DNA from: the human T2T-CHM13v2.0 reference genome, Homo sapiens
Assembly: GCF_009914755.1 (NCBI RefSeq)
Contig: NC_060927.1
Length of the DNA: 64,000 nucleotides
Direction: 5' to 3' (one strand)
Made by a program: the position numbers and the translations under genes. The notes under the pieces are model-generated. The model was given only the letters and a program-made list of their open reading frames with translations. It was not told the origin of the DNA and made no database searches. Below are positions 4,516-49,786 of the stretch, piece by piece; position 1 is the first letter of the stretch; the number at the start of each line of letters is the position of its first letter.

Positions 4516-4574
4516 TTAGGAAACAGTGTAGCTCTCTACTGTAGATGGTTAATAAAATATGGAGAACCATTAGT

Positions 4575-4710
4575 GTAATCAGAGAGACTTGGGTTGCCAG
4601 TGGCTGCTTGTACAACCTTGGTCAGTTGCTTACATTCTCTGTGCTTTAGTTTCTTAATCTGGGAAAAAAAATGGATTGAACTAAATCATTTCCAGTGCTA
4701 ACATGTTATA
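4575..4710 (+). mobile_element. MIR fragment
   Basis: accttggtcagttgcttacattctctgtgctttagtttcttaatctg is a MIR-core-like motif. Confidence 0.55.
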
Positions 4711-4934
4711 CCTTTGGAAAGGAACTTAGATATAGTTGAAACAATTTGAATTTCTCTAGTTTTTAGTTTTTATTTATTTAAATTTTTTCTTTTTAAATCG
4801 TGGGTACATAGTAGGTATATATATTTATGGGATACAGGAGATATTTTGACACAGGCTTACACATCAAGGTAAATGTGGTATCCATCCCCTCAAGCATTTA
4901 TCCTTTGTGTTACAAACAATCCAGTTATACTCCT

Positions 4935-5347
4935 TCATATGGTTTGGATCTGTGTCTCCACCAAATCTCATGTTGAATTGTAATCGCCAGTGTTGGAGGT
5001 AGGGCCTGGTGGGAGGCGATTGGATCATGGGGAGTGGTTTCTCATGAATGGTTTAATACCATCAACTTGGTACCATCTTCATGATAGTGAGTGAGTTCTT
5101 GCCAGATCTGGTTGTTTAAAAGTATGTAGCACCTCCCTCCTCTCTTTCTCCTACTCATAACATGTGAGATGCCTGCTCGCCCTTTGCCTTCTGCCATGAT
5201 TGGAAGCCTCCTGAGGCCTCCCCCCCAAAAAAAGCTGCTATGCTTCCTGTACAGCCTGCAGAACCATGAGCTGATTAAACCTCTTTTCTTTATAAATTAC
5301 CCAGACTCGGATATTTCTTTATAGCAATGCGAGAACAGACTAATGCA
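4935..5347 (+). mobile_element. MSTA/MSTB-like MaLR solo LTR
   Basis: Starts atatggtttggatctgtgtctccaccaaatctcatg and ends agcaatgcgagaacagactaatgca. Confidence 0.9.
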
Positions 5348-37875: not shown

Positions 37876-40146
37876 TTAAATGTTGTATACTTAGCACATA
37901 AGTGATCATTAAATGTTTGATGAATGAATTAATGAGGAAAGATTTTTTTTTTGAAAAAGAAGTTTTATGAGGAGAGAAAACATTGCATATGTAAGGCATT
38001 ATCCTCAATTCCATTGTGGACTCTCCCCCAGGTGTGCAGCCTTGAATGATGGAAATATCCTCATGAGATTCTGAAAGAGGAGGAAACGAATTTTGCCCTT
38101 AAATAGGTGTCAGTACAGCTGCACTTATTTGCACATTTCTAGTTCTGCCTCTGACTAGAGATCAATTGTGATGACTTTGAATTTGTAGACCATCTGCCTG
38201 TCAGTGCACTTAAAATTGCAACTGATCTTTATAAGCTGAGTATAACTATTATTGTAGCAAACAGCAAATTAAGTGACTATACACTGGAAAGAGTTAGGTT
38301 CATACCTCCTTGAAGACTGTGAGCTGTTCTTTATTTGGACACCTGGTATTAAACTCTTATTGGTTATTAATATTTGGGACAGGTTAATGAAGACAATATT
38401 TTACAGAATATAGCAGTTTTCAATATAATAGATTCAATACAACAACTTTTTGTGTGTTTATAATTTTGTTACTTATTATTTACCATAAGTGGTTTAAAAT
38501 ATACGTGGCAAAACATTCTTTAGAGCTTTGATTGCAATAATTATCACATAACCAACACCTCTTAAGTATTACGTACTTAAGAAGGAACTTGAACTTTATC
38601 TTAACACAATAGCATTGACAAATTACTCACAAAATTAGTAGTTGTGGAAGAAAATAGGTATAGGAAGAGTAAGTCACTGATATTGAGTAAATTAAAGTTA
38701 TAGACATTAAATTACAGACAATAAAATTATAGAAGCACTAAATAGATAAATTGATTTTTTTAATGTCATGTTAAGCATTTAAATTGCCTTTACAAAATAT
38801 TCTTCACAGTCCTTGGAGAAATTGCTGCTGTATATTTGATTAATATGTGAACAACATTTTTATTGTTAAAATATTTTCTTCATTCCTTTCAAATTTGTAT
38901 TTAAGGTTAGCAGAGCCTCAAGCAGTGCCTGAGTAGGAAAGTGATAAACTGACACCACACTGTAGAGGAGGAAGAAAAACATCTCACCAACGGCAGACAG
39001 CAGAAACTAATGGTTTTCAACTGTTGCTGATCTAATCAATCATGGTGCTATAATATAATCAGTTCTGTGTGATTCGTTTGTTGTTCTACTGGAATGCATT
39101 GTATTCCCTTCTTATTTTTAAGCCCCCCTACTTCTAGTTTTCGCCTTTCTTAAAAGGCAATTTCTAACATTGTGTTTCTTTTAAAGCCAATAAGTAATTG
39201 TGAAAGACAAACTCAGAGCCTGTTGAATTTCAACAAAAGTTAAGTATTTTGTAGGACATACAACAATAGTGTTCTTTAATTAAAATACTGAGCCATATGA
39301 AAATTTGTCCAACATTTGGTAAATGCCCTTAGTTGAATCGTTAATATCCTAGATAGTAAAAGATTAGTACCTTTTATCTCTAGTCTACTGGGTACAGATT
39401 TTGCTTTCAGATACTATCATCACATCATCACACACAGGTTGAAGATGACATTTTCTCACCTGTTAAGGCATGACTTTCAGTAAAATGTATTTAGCTGTCA
39501 GAGGTCTGCAAGCAGTCCATCAGTTGAGACATGATGCTGTTTTGACCGATATTGGTGACATTTTAAAAGCTACACAAAAATTCATAATTATAAAAGTGTT
39601 CACTGTTTCACTAAAGACTGTGTAATGCATTGCATATTAATTAATAAGATGTTCTCTTTTAAATGCTATCCCTAAAATGTACTTAATGTTACTTTCCATT
39701 ACCATGCATAAAGTTTTAACCATTTATTCATGCCATTAGAAAAATGTAGACTTTTCCTTTCTTTTCGGTATGTTCCTTTTACTTTTCTACTCATTATAGA
39801 GTCATGAACAACTATGGAAAAACACACTTTGTTGATTCCTTGTGATGTTTTTGAAAACTTCGTTCATATATGAAAACTTCTAATTCACCTTGCTTTCTGA
39901 AGGAGAAGACTAAGTTACATATGAGCCCTGTTTTGAGTAATGTATTACTATTAGTATTACAGTATGAAAGATCTATAATCAGAAGCCCCTTTCCCTTGAA
40001 GTGGAATTATTCTCTATGGCCATTAGTACTTAGGGTGATATACTATCTTCAGTGCTATCCTGTGCCTTTCCATTTTTGTCATGTTACTTCCCTCTCTTTA
40101 CATCCCTGCCCACCTCCACTTTCTGCTGTTAAGAATAGTCCATAGG

Positions 40147-41403
40147 GACTGTAAACTAGTTCAACCATTGTGGAAGACAGTGTGGCGATTTCTCAAGGAT
40201 CTAGAACTAGAAATACATTTGACCCAGCCATCCCATTACTGGGTGTATACCCAAAGGATTATAAATCATGCTGCTACAAAGACACATGCACACATATGTT
40301 TATTGTGGCACTATTCGCAGTAGCAGAGACTTGGAACCAACCCAAATGTCCATCAATAATAGACTGAATTAAGAAAATGTGGCACATATACACCACGGAA
40401 TACTATGCAGCCATAAAAAAGGATGAGTTCATGTCCTTTGCAGGGACATGGATGAAGCTGGAAACCCTCATTCTAAGCAAACTATCACAAGGAGAGAAAA
40501 CCAAACACCACATGTTCTCACTTATAAGTGGGAGTTGAACAATGAGAACACATGGACACAGGGAGGGGAATATCACACACTGGGGCCTGTTGTGGGGTGG
40601 GGGCCTGGGGGAGGGATAGCATTAGGAGAAATACCTCATGTAAATGATGAGTTGATGGGTGCGGCAAACCAACATGGCACATGTATACCTATGTAACAAA
40701 CCTGCACATTGTGCACATGTACCCTAAAACTTAAAGTATAATAATAAATAAATTACATTTCTTCCAACGTATTTATCAGCTACAAAAGCGGACCCTTTTA
40801 ATCTCCCTCTCACCAACTACTACTTCTGTGTCTCAATTTGTCATTAAATCAAGTGAGGAATGTTTATTCTTAGAGCCATCCTTAAAAAAGAAAAGAAAAG
40901 AAAAGAAAATATCTTGCACTTATCTTTGGTTGATGACCTAATATCTGGAACACTGTTTCTTATTAATAAGTTTGTGGTAGGCTATAATAAACTCCATATA
41001 AAGCCATGCCAGTTGTGCACATGTACCCTAGAACTTAAAGTATAATAAAAAAAAGAAGGGGTTCATAAGCACCCTGTAAACACTGAAGCCTATTCAAAAG
41101 GAGAGGGGTAGGACACATCTCACCATCAATCATCACAAGACGACAATGGTATGAATAACCAATGTTTACTTCATACAGGGGCTACTTAAGGAGGTCACTA
41201 TATCTCAATGTGAAAACTCCAATGAACCAGGCACTATGTTCAATTGAAATCAACCTAGAGAACCTTATCTCTCTGCATAAATGCTCCTGCTGCATGGTTT
41301 TTCATGGCCACTGGTGGAATTCTGTGATGGGGGAACAGGAAATCTGGACACAGAAGGGTGGGAATAAAATGAGCCTGTGCTGCTTTCAAAAAAAAAAAAA
41401 AAA
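40147..41403 (+). mobile_element. 5'-truncated L1PA (about L1PA6) carrying a 3' transduction of about 640 bp
   Basis: L1 3' end 40147-40751; non-L1 sequence to 41387; AATAAA 41363-41368; poly(A) from 41388; whole unit bounded by the 16-bp TSD aagaatagtccatagg (40131-40146 / 41404-41419) at a TT/AAGA endonuclease-type site. Confidence 0.92.
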
Positions 41404-42275
41404 AAGAATAGTCCATAGGCTAAAGCTTATTGCTAGGGTTACCACCTAGAACAGGGAAGCTTAATTGTGAATTAGAAAGTAGATTTTTTTCTTTTTCAAA
41501 GTTCAAAGATAAGACAATAGCCAGACATTCAAGTGGTTAAAGGATTTTCTGAGAACTTCCAAAGCTGGGTTTTTACCTAACAAAAAGCATATTTGGAGGA
41601 TTATTTTATGTCATAATCATAGTAAGAAGAGTAATTCTAGACACCAAGGACTGGTCAGTCCATCCCATTTAGGTATGGGGGACTGAGGTACATAGATTCA
41701 GAGTGGGTGAGGCTAGGGTAAGAATGATACCTGGGCCCTGAGGAGGGAATAAGTTCCCTTTATCTTAGAGATGAAACAAAATAGAACTTTCACAAAGGCC
41801 AAAGAGTAATCCCTAAAACTGCAGGCTGTTGCTAGGGTTTCTCTGGGTATAGCCTGCAAAACCCACAGACCTTTTGGAAAGTCTTGTTTGGAGCAAAGTG
41901 CCATCTCTGTCATAGCACAGTAGTAATGAATAAAGGATGAAGGACAAAGCCAAAGGGCAGTTTTTATAGGGTTCTGCACACTCCAGGGTAATGCAGAGAA
42001 AGCAACCAAGAGTTTTGACTATCCCCTGACCACCCCCCCACCACCTCCCCGCAGGAGTTGATAGTACTGAGTGGGCTGCAAGACTGAAATTGGCTTGGTT
42101 TCAAGAGGGAGGAGGAGGCAGCTCTATGCAGATTTCTTGTGAACAGAGAGATTGGACATCTCTCTGCAACTACTGGCACAGCTTGCCTGCTGACCAAGTG
42201 GATGAAGTCAAAGCAAAACCTGATGCTGAGAAGTGAAGCTCATGAAAAGCCATCCTGGAAGGACAGTAAAAGAAG

Positions 42276-42737
42276 TCATGCTTCAGGGAGGCAGCCAAAA
42301 TGGCCGAATAGGAACAGCTCCAGTCTACAGCTCCCAGCGTGAGTGACGCAGAAGACGGGTGATTTCTGCATTTCCATCTGAGGTACTGGGTTCATCTCAC
42401 TAGGGAGTGCCAGACAGTGGGCACAGGACAGTGGGTGCAGCACACTGTGCGCGACCCGAAGCAGGGCAAGACATTGCCTCACTCGGGAAGCGCAAGGGGT
42501 CAGGGAGTTCCCTTTCCCAGTCAAAGAAAGGGGTGACAGACGGCACCTGGAAAATCGGGTCACTCCCATCCTAATACTGCGCTTTTCTGACGGGCTTAAA
42601 AAACGGCGCACCAGGAGATTATATCCCACGCAAGGCTCGGAGGGTCCTACGCCCACGGAATCTCGCTGATTGCTAGCACAGCAGTCTGAGATCAAACTGC
42701 GAGGCAGCAGCGAGGCTAGGGGAGGGGCGCCCGCCAT
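42276..42737 (-). CDS. L1 ORF0 (antisense), extended to 153 aa
   Basis: N-terminus MAGAPPLASLLPRSLISDCCASNQRDSVGVGPSEP matches primate L1 ORF0; the frame stays open past the element 5' end. Confidence 0.55.
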   Translation of the reverse strand: MAGAPPLASLLPRSLISDCCASNQRDSVGVGPSEPCVGYNLLVRRFLSPSEKRSIRMGVTRFSRCRLSPLSLTGKGNSLTPCASRVRQCLALLRVAHSVLHPLSCAHCLALPSEMNPVPQMEMQKSPVFCVTHAGSCRLELFLFGHFGCLPEA

Positions 42738-43320
42738 TGCCCAGGCTTGCTTAGGTAAACAAAGCAGCCAGGAAGCTCAAACTGGGTGGAGCCCACCACA
42801 GCCCAAGGAGGCCTGCCTGCCTCTGTAGGCTCCACCCCTGGGGGCAGGGCACAGATAAACAAAAAGACAGCAGTAACCTCTGCAGACTTAAATGTCCCTG
42901 TCTGACAGCTTTGAAGAGAGCAGTGGTTCTCCCAGCAGGCAGCTGGAGATCTGAGAACGGGCAGACTGCCTCCTCAAGTGGGTCCCTGACCCCTGACCCC
43001 CGAGCAGCCTAACTGGGAGGCAACCCCCAGTAGGGGCAGACTGACACCTCACACGGCCAGGTACTCCTCTGAGACAAAACTTCCAAAGGAACGATCAGAC
43101 AGCAGCATTTGCCGTTCACAAAAATCCGCTGTTCTGCAGCCACCACTGCTGATACCCAGGCAAACAGGGTCTGGAGTGGACCTCTAGCAAACTCCAACAG
43201 ACCTGCAGCTGAGGGTCCTGTCTGTTAGAAGGAAAACTAACAAACAGAAGGGACATCCACACCAAAAACCCATCTGTACATCACCATCATCAAAGACCAA
43301 AAGTAGATAAAACCACAAAG
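42285..43320. promoter_or_regulatory. L1 5' UTR internal sense and antisense promoter
   Basis: CpG-containing L1PA 5' UTR; YY1-type site present as the variant AAAATGGCCG (42297-42306). Confidence 0.8.
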
Positions 43321-44337
43321 ATGGGGAGAAAACAGAGCAGAAAAACTGGAAACCCTAAAAAGCAGAGCACCTCTCCTCCTCCAAAGGAACGCAGTTCCTC
43401 ACCAGCAATGGAACGAAGCTGGACGGAGAATGACTTTGATGAGTTGAGAGAAGAAGGCTTCAGACAATCAAACTACTCCGAGCTACAGGAGGAAATTCAA
43501 ACCAAAGGCAAAGAAGTAAAAAACTTTGAAAAAAATTTAGACGAATGTATAACTAGAATAACCAATACAGAGAAGTGCTTAAAGGAGCTGATGGAGCTGA
43601 AAGCCAAGGCTCGGGAACTACGTGAAGAATACAGAAGCCTCAGGAGCCGATGTGATCAACTGGAAGAAAGGGTATCAGTGATGGAAGATGAAATGAATGA
43701 AATGAAGCAAGAAGGGAAGTTTAGAGAAAAAAGAATAAAAAGATATGAACAAAGCCTCCAAGAAATATGGGACTATGTGAAAAGACCAAATCTACGTCTG
43801 ATTGGTGTACCTGAAAGTGACGGGGAGAAAGGAACCAAGTGGGAAAACACTCTACAGGATATTGTCCAGGAGAACTTCCCCAATCTAGCAAGGCAGACCA
43901 ACATTCAGATTCAGGAAATACAGAGAACGCCTCAAAGATACTCCTCGAGAAGAGCAACTCCAAGACACATAATTGTCAGATTCACCAAAGTTGAAATGAA
44001 GGAAAAAATGTTAAGGGCAGCCAGAGAGAAAGGTCGGGTTACCCACAAAGGGAAGCCCATCAGACTAACAGCAGATCTCTCGGCAGAAACTCTACAAGCC
44101 AGAAGAGAGTGGGGACAAATATTCAACATTCCTAAAGAAATGAATTTTCAGCCCATAATTTCATATCCAGCCAAACTAAGCTTCATAAGTGAAGGAGAAA
44201 TAAAATACTTTACAGAGAAGCAAATGCTGAGAGATTTTGTCACCACCAGGCCTGCCCTAAAAGAGCTCCTGAAGGAAGCACTAAACATGGAAAGGAACAA
44301 CCGGTACCAGCCACTGCAAAATCATGCCAAATTGTAA
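43321..44337 (+). CDS. LINE-1 ORF1p (RNA-binding chaperone), intact 338 aa
   Basis: Canonical length; coiled coil, RPNLRLIGVPE, REKG, ARR and YPAKLS motifs all present. Confidence 0.93.
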   Translation: MGRKQSRKTGNPKKQSTSPPPKERSSSPAMERSWTENDFDELREEGFRQSNYSELQEEIQTKGKEVKNFEKNLDECITRITNTEKCLKELMELKAKARELREEYRSLRSRCDQLEERVSVMEDEMNEMKQEGKFREKRIKRYEQSLQEIWDYVKRPNLRLIGVPESDGEKGTKWENTLQDIVQENFPNLARQTNIQIQEIQRTPQRYSSRRATPRHIIVRFTKVEMKEKMLRAAREKGRVTHKGKPIRLTADLSAETLQARREWGQIFNIPKEMNFQPIISYPAKLSFISEGEIKYFTEKQMLRDFVTTRPALKELLKEALNMERNNRYQPLQNHAKL

Positions 44338-44400
44338 AAACCATCAAGGCTAGGAAGAAACTCCATCAACTAACAAGCAAAATAACCAGCTAACATCATA

Positions 44401-48216
<3,816 letters not shown>

Positions 48217-49786
48217 ACAGTGAGAACACATGGACACAGGAAGGGGAACATCACACTCTGGGGACTGGTGGGGGGTTGGGGGAGGGGGGAGGGATAGCAT
48301 TAGGAGATATACCTAATGCTACATGACGAGTTAATGGGTGCAGCACACCAGCATGGCAAATGTATACATACGTAACCTGTACATTGTGCACATGTACCCT
48401 AAAACTTAAAGTATAATAATAATGAAAGACAAAAAAGAAGTCATGCTTCCTCTTATATCCAAATGCCAACTTGGTAAGAAGGGAGGAGATAACTGTAGGG
48501 AGGGGTAGAAATTTTTATGGATTAAACAGCCAAAGCAAAGTGTTTTAAATCAGAAGATACTGAGATGCCTTTTTAAATGACAAGGTTGATTTTTTTCCTG
48601 TGATGATTTGAAATAGCGACTTGTAACTAGAAACAAGTTTAGAAAATACAGTTACTTTTTTTTGTTTGTTTGTTTCATGCCCTGGATTGTGGCTGACCAG
48701 TTTATACCTACTGTGCTGGAAAAGTTTAAATTATAAATTACTGTCACAGTCTCCGTAGATACTAAAATCTCTGATCTATAAAACCTGTATTGCATGAGCA
48801 ATACTGTCATTCCTCCTTTTTCTATAACAGTTATTAAAGGAGAAGAACTATGCTACGATTCATGTGTATTTACTGAGCATATAAAGCAGTCTATGCAGTT
48901 CGTACATACCTCTCTCTAAATGCATTGAGGAAAATTATATCTCTTACGTAAATCATCTAAGACTTTCTGAATTTTGTTAGATCCTGCCATTTCTTATTTT
49001 ACACAGGAGGCTGCCAGCTCTCAACTGATTGAATTGATTACTTCATTAAAGCTAGAAATACAGATCTGATGAGTTTTGCAATTAATTGTATAGAAAGCTG
49101 GGCTTGGAAAAAGAAGAGGATGCACTGAGTAGCAGAGTAGACCTGATGCTCAGTTAAACCTAAACTGCTACTGGTACAGCAAGTCAGACAAGCAGTCTGG
49201 ACCTTACTCAGGGTCAGGAGAAAGCGGCAAATCAGAACCCAGGAAGAGAGTCAGGGAACATTATGGTATATACCCATTGAATTTAGATGATCAAGAGTTT
49301 AAGCCAGACAGTAACCTACAGGGCTACAGGGCAATAAAGAGTCACACGTAACAAATCTTTGTTGTGAAATAGACAAATATTTCATGCTATTTCAGAAACT
49401 ATTCCCAGAGTTGAGCAGAGTAAATCTGCAGTTAGGCAGTGTTAGGTAAGTGAAAGAATCATGTGAGGTTAGGACTAAGGCTTCATCCTGATGTCAGCCT
49501 GTGGTGGTACATTCTGACACTAACTGCAGACAAATTTCTCACCTTCATATGTTTCCTGAAAACTTATCCCGAATTTATTTTTGTTAATTATCTCATCTCC
49601 TCTTATACCCAAGTGCATTCCTTGACTCAACTTCTCATCTTTCTTTTATGTATCCCAAAAAAGTTTGCTCCTCATCAGTGTCCTTTACACTGTAAAATTT
49701 TTGCCTGAGAGTATTCTCTTTTAGAAAATCTTCTCATATCAATTCCAAGTAGTTTTAGGTGGAAGCACAGAAACACTAAATCTCTG

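What the first reader, a model, noticed from the sequence alone, without database searches (positions are those of the whole stretch)
40752..41403. The transduced cargo looks layered: possible transduction of a transduction
Seen: the cargo contains (i) ATTAAA at 40843 followed by an A-rich tract aaaaaag(aaaag)3aaaa at 40884-40909, and (ii) a 45-bp L1PA 3' tip with its own A-tail (41013-41057) for which I find no TSD. Inference: the A-rich tract may be the decayed poly(A) of an earlier transduction generation. The TSD-less tip plus 41058-41387 may itself be an older L1-plus-transduction whose poly(A) signal was reused, so its 3' TSD was not carried along. If so, the insert records two or three donor loci in series. 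Caveat: the ATTAAA-to-tract spacing of 35 nt is rather long.
Basis: inference. Interest (0 to 1): 0.72.

Follow-up and report, generated by a model that had tools for sequence, protein, structure and literature searches.

The report
Layered L1 transduction from three loci
A truncated L1 retrotransposon copy in a UBE2E2 intron carries a 636-base tail stitched from three other places in the genome, a clear fossil of one jumping element picking up flanking DNA over successive hops, which is a known process.

Summary

The insert (window 40147-41403) has a perfect 16-bp target-site duplication, a 5'-truncated L1 3' end, a 636-bp cargo and an A18 tail.

The cargo maps to three separate places in the same genome:
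- seg1 (40752-40883) matches a low-copy unit on chr4 and chr5.
- seg2 (40910-41014) matches only chr3:23.06 Mb.
- seg3 (about 41055-41387) matches only chr9:110.955 Mb.

The chr3:23.06 Mb locus is the predicted intermediate. It holds a roughly 5.6-kb L1, then seg1, then A13. Its own target-site duplication follows, and that is where seg2 begins as native flank. So the A-rich tract at 40884-40909 is the poly(A) of an earlier generation. This is a true transduction of a transduction (about 0.9).

The third layer is different. A second L1 tip with A8 is joined to seg2 with no A's. The junction lies 21 nt after an AATAAA, at a 3-nt microhomology. No L1 sits at the chr9 site. I favour RNA-level recombination or reverse-transcriptase template switching (about 0.45).

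Unexplained: the intermediate lies only 291 kb from the insert.

Concatenated transductions are already in print, so this is a new member of a known kind.

The parts
40131..40146 (+). 5' target-site duplication of the whole insert (AAGAATAGTCCATAGG). It is preceded by TT, so the site reads TT/AAGA, which resembles an L1 endonuclease site.
   Evidence: Perfect 16-nt direct repeat with 41404-41419; sequence read.
40147..40751 (+). 5'-truncated L1 3' end of about 605 bp, with L1's own AATAAA and a very short tail.
   Evidence: Aligns to the 3' end of the L1 at chr3:23.06 Mb: 35 mismatches in 593 aligned positions plus a 9-bp gap. The whole block 40145-41014 is 92.2% identical over 870 columns. 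The partner element matches the window's large L1 at 43118-48441 over about 4 kb at 89%.
40752..40883 (+). seg1, the oldest transduced layer. It derives from a member or ancestor of a low-copy unit now found on chr4 and chr5. ATTAAA lies at 40843.
   Evidence: The own-genome search gave 5 candidates, all scored: the window itself, chr3:23061356-487 (92%), chr4:80792897-3028 (88%), chr5:63902724-855 (86%) and a 43-nt partial on chr4. The chr4 and chr5 copies have no L1 upstream. Homology to them ends within 2 nt of where the A tract starts.
40884..40909 (+). Decayed poly(A) of the generation that inserted at chr3:23.06 Mb.
   Evidence: The same position at chr3:23.06 Mb reads A13GAGAAA. The chr4 and chr5 copies continue with unrelated sequence.
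40907..40921 (+). Carried-along copy of the 3' target-site duplication of the chr3:23.06 Mb insertion (AAATATCTTGCACTT).
   Evidence: The 5' copy, AAATATCTTCCACTT, matches at 14 of 15 positions. It abuts the point where 39 other L1 copies begin to match (query position 212-223 of 400).
40910..41014 (+). seg2, the second layer: native 3' flank of the chr3:23.06 Mb element. It ends 21 nt after the AATAAA at 40986. The last 3 nt (GTT) are shared with the L1 tip.
   Evidence: The only other match in the genome is chr3:23061234-336, at 97% (2 candidates, both scored). There the sequence runs on into unique DNA with no A run. There are 3 mismatches in 103. Signal distance.
41013..41054 (+). Second L1 3' tip, about 42-45 nt, plus an A8 tail. 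It comes from a different L1 RNA or copy than the element's own end (G instead of A in CCCTAGAAC, and a different tail).
   Evidence: 40-nt direct repeat of 40709-40748 at 95%. Many genomic L1 ends match it at 94-100%. No A's separate it from seg2.
41055..41387 (+). seg3, the third layer, from chr9:110,955,12x-454. AATAAA lies at 41363, 19 nt before the tail.
   Evidence: The only other match in the genome is chr9, at 96% (2 candidates, both scored). There are 11 mismatches and 2 indel columns in 328 columns. No L1 3' end lies within 1.5 kb on either side of the chr9 match. At chr9 the signal reads ACTAAA and a T15 run follows.
41388..41405 (+). Terminal poly(A), A18.
   Evidence: Tandem Repeats Finder row.
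41404..41419 (+). 3' target-site duplication.

Best explanation
One endonuclease-dependent, target-primed L1 insertion carries cargo that records three source loci.

Step 1 (inferred). An L1 sat in a copy, or the ancestor, of a low-copy unit now on chr4 and chr5. It read through its own weak signal and was polyadenylated 35 nt after an ATTAAA.

Step 2 (shown). That RNA inserted at chr3:23.06 Mb as L1 plus seg1 plus poly(A), with its own target-site duplication.

Step 3 (shown as to source). A transcript of that element read on into its new flank (seg2). In the window seg2 ends 21 nt after an AATAAA.

Step 4 (inferred, least certain). This RNA was joined without a poly(A), at a GTT microhomology, to the last roughly 45 nt plus A8 of a second L1. 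That second L1 RNA had read through into chr9 DNA (seg3) and was polyadenylated 19 nt after an AATAAA. The join was most likely made by reverse transcriptase switching templates, or by ligation of the two RNAs. It happened either in the event that made this insert or one generation earlier, at chr9.

Step 5 (shown). The product integrated at TT/AAGAATAG in what is now a UBE2E2 intron, 5'-truncated to 605 bp of L1.

The insert has no evident function. It is a lineage fossil.
For: Hallmarks of target-primed insertion: a perfect 16-bp duplication, an A18 tail and 5' truncation.

Separate origins: seg1 has 4 full loci, seg2 has 2 and seg3 has 2, on chr4/chr5, chr3 and chr9.

Intermediate locus:
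- The block 40145-41014 aligns colinearly to chr3:23.06 Mb at 92.2% over 870 columns.
- There the A13 run is followed by AAATATCTTGCACTT. Its partner, AAATATCTTCCACTT, sits exactly at the L1/unique-DNA boundary.
- seg2 continues there into unique DNA.
- The direction is chr3:23.06 Mb to window, because only the former has the duplication and the continuing flank.

All three layers end 19-35 nt after a poly(A) hexamer.

Third layer:
- The L1 tip plus A8 directly precedes chr9-derived DNA.
- At chr9 the boundary reads AT/AAGAAG, which resembles an L1 endonuclease site, and no L1 is present.
- The seg2/tip junction has no A's and a GTT overlap.

Precedent in print:
- 27 SVA copies carry concatenated transductions from several source loci (PMC12593883, passage seen).
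- Chimeric L1 insertions are ascribed to template switching or RtcB ligation (PMC13174262, passages and section 10 seen).
Against: - Nothing here shows that the seg2/tip joint was made at the RNA or cDNA level. The same structure could arise from two insertions or from a nested donor.
- A template switch onto a polyadenylated RNA should leave A's, and there are none. The acceptor would have to be cleaved but untailed, deadenylated or uncleaved.
- The GTT overlap lies past the CA where cleavage is usual. A cleaved RNA might therefore not contain it.
- The chr3:23.06 Mb L1 starts inside its 5' UTR, so it may not have been an autonomous donor.
- Neither the chr4 nor the chr5 copy has the ATTAAA (both read CTTGAAAT). 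They differ from the window/chr3 ancestor at 8 of 132 sites, so neither is proven to be the first donor site.
- L1 plus seg1 differ more between the window and chr3:23.06 Mb (46 of 725) than seg2 plus seg3 differ from their sources (14 of 431). Fisher p = 0.027. Simple descent does not predict this.
- The 291-kb distance between parent and offspring (chance about 1.9e-4) is not explained by ordinary retrotransposition.
Confidence: 0.5

Rival explanations
1. Two successive insertions at the window site. First came an ordinary offspring of the chr3:23.06 Mb element: L1, seg1, poly(A), seg2 and a poly(A) tail. Later a heavily truncated L1 carrying the chr9 transduction (tip, A8, seg3, poly(A)) was nicked in at the TT/AAAA formed where seg2 (ending in GTT) met its tail. 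It left no duplication of its own, and its tail merged with the old one.
For: The end of seg2 plus an A tail would create a textbook L1 endonuclease site. That seg2 ends 21-24 nt after an AATAAA is explained by normal polyadenylation. No lost allele of chr3:23.06 Mb is needed. That A tails are favoured targets is established knowledge and was not tested here.
Against: A normal second insertion would leave a 7-20-nt run of A's as its 5' duplication between seg2 and the tip. There are none. The insertion would have to be blunt and exactly at the first A. It also leaves the 291-kb proximity unexplained.
Confidence: 0.2
2. A truncated L1 tip with the chr9 transduction inserted into the 3' flank of the chr3:23.06 Mb element, right after seg2. 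The element then read through it and reused seg3's AATAAA, so the nested insert's 3' duplication was not carried along.
For: The site fits. TAT/AAAGCCATGCCAGTT would give a 15-bp duplication ending in the GTT microhomology that is typical of 5'-truncated L1 joints. Only standard steps are needed.
Against: This genome's chr3:23.06 Mb locus has no such insert and no scar, so a second lost allele must be assumed. The donor would have had to fire during that allele's short life. The AATAAA 21 nt upstream becomes a coincidence. The donor L1 lacks the start of its 5' UTR. The proximity remains unexplained.
Confidence: 0.1
3. DNA-level templated repair. Target-primed reverse transcription of the tip, A8 and seg3 RNA stalled after 45 nt of L1. 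The break was then sealed by microhomology-mediated copying of 870 bp of DNA from the nearby chr3:23.06 Mb locus, in inverted orientation.
For: It explains the 291-kb proximity and the opposite strands. It also fits the 2-3-nt microhomologies at both ends of the 870-bp block: GG at 40145-46 and GTT at 41012-14.
Against: Templated fill-ins of this length at L1 joints are not something I know to be described (recalled, not searched). The right end falling 21 nt after an AATAAA, and the left end looking like ordinary L1 5' truncation, would both be coincidences.
Confidence: 0.05
4. No layering. The cargo is one contiguous ancestral flank, and the A tract and L1 tip were native to it.
For: None was found.
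Against: The three segments map to chr4/chr5, chr3 and chr9. No locus in this genome holds any two non-adjacent layers together apart from the intermediate described above.
Confidence: 0.01

Closest known systems
L1 3' transduction (read-through of L1's weak poly(A) signal; classic papers by Moran, Goodier and Pickeral are recalled and were not held in the library)
   Same: L1 end, then unique flank, then a downstream hexamer, a poly(A) tail and a target-site duplication. The source flank is identifiable elsewhere in the genome.
   Different: Here there are three stacked flanks rather than one.
Concatenated or sequential transductions (27 SVA copies with sequence from several source loci, PMC12593883, passage seen; L1 transduction lineages such as AC002980, RP and LRE3, PMC4866827, passages seen)
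   Same: An offspring element becomes a donor and adds its new flank behind the old one, leaving an internal poly(A). The chr3:23.06 Mb locus is such an offspring turned donor.
   Different: This is an old, fixed L1PA-age example, not a polymorphic SVA or L1HS. Its last layer is not joined through a poly(A) but through a second L1 tip.
Chimeric L1 insertions (U6/L1 and others) made by template switching or RtcB ligation (PMC13174262, passages and section 10 seen; PMC6789731 and PMC2104539 seen as search listing and abstract only)
   Same: Two RNAs joined head to tail in the same orientation inside one target-site duplication. The 3' part is a 5'-truncated L1-derived RNA, and the 5' part ends at that RNA's 3' end.
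   Different: Both partners here would be L1 read-through transcripts. This type was not mentioned in the passages I read, which do not cover the whole paper or its tables. The event is inferred, not shown.

Membership tests
L1 target-primed insertion with 3' transduction | Target-site duplication flanking the whole unit, at an A-rich endonuclease-like site | tested here: met
   Perfect 16-bp repeat at 40131-46 and 41404-19, preceded by TT.
L1 target-primed insertion with 3' transduction | L1 3' end followed by non-L1 DNA that ends in a poly(A) tail 10-35 nt after a hexamer signal | tested here: met
   AATAAA at 41363, 19 nt before A18.
L1 target-primed insertion with 3' transduction | The transduced DNA is found as the 3' flank of a source L1 elsewhere | tested here: met
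   Met for seg2 at chr3:23.06 Mb. Not met for seg3, because chr9 has no L1. Not met for seg1, because chr4 and chr5 have no L1.
Serial (concatenated) transduction | Layers map to different loci | tested here: met
   chr4/chr5, chr3:23.06 Mb and chr9:110.955 Mb.
Serial (concatenated) transduction | An intermediate element carries the shorter combination, with its own duplication starting the next layer | tested here: met
   At chr3:23.06 Mb: L1, seg1, A13, then the duplication AAATATCTTGCACTT, which is the start of seg2. The 5' copy matches at 14 of 15 positions and sits at the L1 boundary.
Serial (concatenated) transduction | An internal poly(A) lies between every pair of layers | tested here: not met
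   Present between seg1 and seg2 (40884-40909). Absent between seg2 and the tip. Only the tip's own A8 precedes seg3.
Serial (concatenated) transduction | The order of events is confirmed by presence or absence in other species | not testable with these tools
   The own-genome tool states that the genome has no relatives held.
Template-switch or RNA-ligation chimeric L1 insertion | Two unrelated RNAs in the same orientation inside one duplication, with a 3' partner that is a truncated L1-derived RNA carrying the tail | tested here: met
   Structure read.
Template-switch or RNA-ligation chimeric L1 insertion | The 5' partner ends at the 3' terminus of its RNA | tested here: inconclusive
   seg2 ends 21-24 nt after an AATAAA, at or next to a CA. 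There is no tail, and the GTT overlap lies beyond the CA.
Template-switch or RNA-ligation chimeric L1 insertion | Both parts arrived at the same time (all-or-none across species), the criterion used in PMC13174262 section 10 | not testable with these tools
   No other primate genomes are held. Criterion read.

The most novel reading that the evidence does not exclude
A single integration event stitched together two different L1 read-through RNAs. Reverse transcription began on an L1 RNA carrying chr9 flank. After 45 nt of L1 it jumped onto the cleaved but untailed 3' end of a transcript made by a promoter-less L1 only 291 kb away on the same chromosome. If so, ORF2p at a nick can capture RNA produced locally. 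That would explain three things at once: the missing poly(A), the junction 21 nt after an AATAAA, and the otherwise improbable (about 2e-4) closeness of parent and offspring.
Probability: 0.12. Interest if true: 0.65.

Novelty: new member of a known kind. Interest (0 to 1): 0.4.

Why it matters
The insert is a clean example in which the intermediate generation of a serial L1 transduction survives in the same genome, with its own target-site duplication carried inside the offspring's cargo. That makes the order of hops readable without any other species.

Such cases let L1 lineages be traced through old, fixed copies. They also show how unrelated bits of DNA from four chromosomal sites can be assembled into one place.

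The odd third joint is a candidate record of L1-to-L1 RNA recombination. That event is normally invisible, because both partners look alike.

The insert lies about 470 bp upstream of a RefSeq-listed enhancer (41875-43074), but nothing suggests that it has a function.

Tried and rejected
- **Splicing at the seg2/tip joint.** The chr3:23.06 Mb flank after seg2 does not start with GT in a frame that fits, and the L1 side is not preceded by AG (read). Rejected.
- **Twin priming.** All parts are in the same orientation. Rejected.
- **A target-site duplication around the tip alone.** None was found.
- **Ordering the events by divergence.** Mismatch rates were L1 5.9%, seg1 8.3%, seg2 2.9% and seg3 3.4%. 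The contrast is weak (p = 0.027 pooled; 0.10 and 0.11 for single pairs) and is partly CpG changes. Inconclusive.
- **Polarising seg1 with the chr4 and chr5 copies.** 6 changes fall on the window branch, 2 on the chr3:23.06 Mb branch and 3 are ambiguous. The numbers are too small to use.
- **The ORF1 start of the chr3:23.06 Mb L1.** A short recalled motif found nothing. The size of the 5' truncation is therefore estimated from length only: 5,994 bp including a nested inverted L1 piece of about 417 bp.
- **L1 subfamily names.** No repeat library is available, so 'L1PA' is not tested here.
- **Literature on layered L1 transduction.** Searches found no paper in the held library describing this locus or a layered L1 transduction. 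The classic L1 transduction papers are not held: Szak 2003, Pickeral 2000, Macfarlane 2013 and Tubio 2014. I cannot say that L1-specific serial cases are absent from print. From memory they are described.
- **Other papers checked.** PMC4862182, PMC6425141, PMC13009371, PMC9311842, PMC10606232, PMC10883270, PMC7058536 and bioRxiv 2024.04.18.590093 were searched for such wording, with no relevant passage.
- **Supplementary tables.** The chimera tables of PMC13174262 were not opened and might list this locus.

Full report
**What is there**

Window 40131-41419 holds one retrotransposon insert.
- A perfect 16-bp direct repeat (AAGAATAGTCCATAGG) lies at 40131-40146 and 41404-41419.
- Between the repeats are a 5'-truncated L1 3' end (40147-40751), 636 bp of non-L1 cargo (40752-41387) and A18 (41388-41405).

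**Mapping the cargo**

The window's own genome could be searched.
- The whole cargo gave three kinds of non-self match: bases 302-635 on chr9, bases 1-263 on chr3 at 23.06 Mb, and bases 1-135 on chr4 and chr5. The remaining rows scored (40 of 215 candidates) were generic L1 ends matching the tip.
- seg1 (40752-40883) gave 5 candidates, all scored: the window itself, chr3:23061356-487 (92%), chr4 (88%), chr5 (86%) and a 43-nt partial on chr4.
- seg2 (40910-41012) gave 2 candidates: the window itself and chr3:23061234-336 at 97%.
- seg3 (41058-41387) gave 2 candidates: the window itself and chr9:110955126-454 at 96%.

**The intermediate generation**

At chr3:23.06 Mb (minus strand) the block 40145-41014 aligns colinearly at 92.2% over 870 columns.
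- The locus reads L1 end, seg1, A13GAGAAA, seg2. seg2 then continues without any A run into unique DNA.
- The L1 runs 5,994 bp upstream, including a nested inverted L1 piece of about 417 bp.
- A 400-base probe across its 5' end matched 39 other L1 copies, all starting at probe position 212-223. Of 2,174 candidates, 40 were scored.
- Immediately before that boundary lies AAATATCTTCCACTT. Immediately after the A13 run lies AAATATCTTGCACTT, a match at 14 of 15 positions.

This is the target-site duplication of an L1-plus-seg1 insertion. seg2 is therefore that element's native 3' flank, and the window copy carries the duplication at 40907-40921. It follows that the A-rich tract at 40884-40909 is the poly(A) of the earlier generation, and that the direction of descent is chr3:23.06 Mb to window. 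I put this at about 0.9.

The element starts inside its 5' UTR. By length it is roughly 0.5 kb short of a full L1; the full length is from general knowledge. It may have needed an outside promoter or another element's proteins. PMC13174262 describes 5'-compromised L1s driven by co-opted promoters (passage seen).

**The first layer**

The chr4 and chr5 matches have no L1 next to them.
- They are copies of one unit that is 98.3% identical over 592 bp.
- seg1 homology to them starts at TAAATTAC and stops within 2 nt of where the A tract begins. This fits an L1 that once sat in such a unit and was polyadenylated there.
- The window and chr3:23.06 Mb copies share 8 differences from chr4/chr5 in 132 sites, two of them inside the ATTAAA.
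- The first donor site was therefore either the ancestor of the chr4/chr5 pair or a lost paralogue. This step is inferred.

**The third layer**

seg3 begins right after the tip's A8.
- At chr9 the boundary reads AT/AAGAAGGGG, an acceptable L1 nick site.
- No L1 3' end lies within 1.5 kb on either side of the chr9 match.
- The window has AATAAA 19 nt before the tail. chr9 now reads ACTAAA and continues with T15.

The simplest source is an L1 that once sat at chr9, read through, and never became fixed.

The joint between seg2 and the tip is the odd part:
- no A's;
- a GTT shared by both partners;
- a position 21 nt after an AATAAA, next to a CA.

A plain third round of serial transduction would put a poly(A) there and no L1 tip.

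**How the third layer was joined**

I weigh four routes.

(a) *RNA-level recombination, about 0.45.* Reverse transcriptase jumps from the L1/chr9 RNA onto the 3' end of the chr3:23.06 Mb read-through RNA, or the two RNAs are ligated. This could have happened in this event or one generation earlier at chr9.
- It uses mechanisms in print for chimeric L1 inserts (PMC13174262).
- It explains where seg2 ends.
- It does not need the truncated chr3 element to be autonomous.

(b) *Two successive insertions at the window, about 0.2.* The second insertion enters the TT/AAAA at the start of the first one's tail. This is plausible, but it must have left no duplication.

It requires an allele of chr3:23.06 Mb that is absent here, and a donor that fired during that allele's short life.

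(d) *DNA-templated fill-in from the nearby locus, about 0.05.*

None of these can be separated with one genome.

**Unexplained**

- Parent and offspring lie 290,660 bp apart on opposite strands. A random insertion would fall that close with probability about 1.9e-4, or about 6e-4 allowing for three source loci.
- L1 plus seg1 differ more between the two chr3 copies (46 of 725) than seg2 plus seg3 differ from their sources (14 of 431; p = 0.027).
- The mismatches are patchy, with a 110-bp identical stretch at 40524-40633.

**Rough age (inference)**

Pairwise difference is about 3% for seg2 and seg3, and about 6% for L1 and seg1. Matches of the chr3 L1 to other copies run at 87-92%. These figures point to an event tens of millions of years ago, within the L1PA period. 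Subfamily names were not tested.

**Comparison with what is known**

The insert meets the tested defining features of an L1 3' transduction. For the first two layers it also meets those of a concatenated (serial) transduction.
- Such stacking is in print for SVA: 27 cases (PMC12593883).
- From memory it is also described for L1 lineages. Those papers were not held.

It fails one feature of a purely serial stack, the poly(A) between the second and third layers. There it resembles chimeric L1 inserts instead. I file it as a new member of a known kind, with a possible L1-to-L1 recombination joint as the only unusual element.

Noticed in passing
L020 (chr3:23060500-23070400), reverse-complement index about 1523-1953, that is roughly chr3:23068450-23068880: A separate small L1 insert lies upstream of the intermediate element. 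An 83-bp inverted piece (98.8% to the window's large L1) abuts a 348-bp direct 3' end, with a gap of about 60 nt in L1 coordinates. This is the pattern expected of twin priming. GAAATGCTACTTCA occurs on both sides of it.
   Followed up: partly
L020 reverse-complement index 4530-4947 (inside the chr3:23.06 Mb L1): An inverted L1 3'-end fragment of about 355 bp is nested in the body of the intermediate L1, splitting it at a point that is contiguous in L1 coordinates.
   Followed up: no
L005 about 1660-1840 (chr5:63.90 Mb): The chr5 copy of the seg1-bearing unit is interrupted, right after the unit's ...CTCATAAATTTT, by a T run and sequence that I recall as the antisense 3' end of an SVA (SINE-R part). 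The chr4 copy lacks it. The name is recalled and was not tested.
   Followed up: no
L002 1925-2251, minus strand (chr9:110.955 Mb): About 135 bp downstream of seg3's chr9 source, on the opposite strand, lies an open frame with ankyrin repeats (Pfam Ank_2, E = 3.6e-12). It ends at a GT that looks like a splice donor. seg3's source therefore appears to lie in an intron of an ankyrin-repeat gene, antisense to it.
   Followed up: partly
L004 41-119 and 1468-1546 (chr4:80.79 Mb): The last roughly 79 bp of the chr4 unit occur twice, 1.4 kb apart (91% to the chr5 copy; 43-nt hit).
   Followed up: no
window 40206-40223: The window's L1 fragment has 9 bases that the chr3:23.06 Mb parent lacks. This would be a deletion in the parent after the copy was made.
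   Followed up: no
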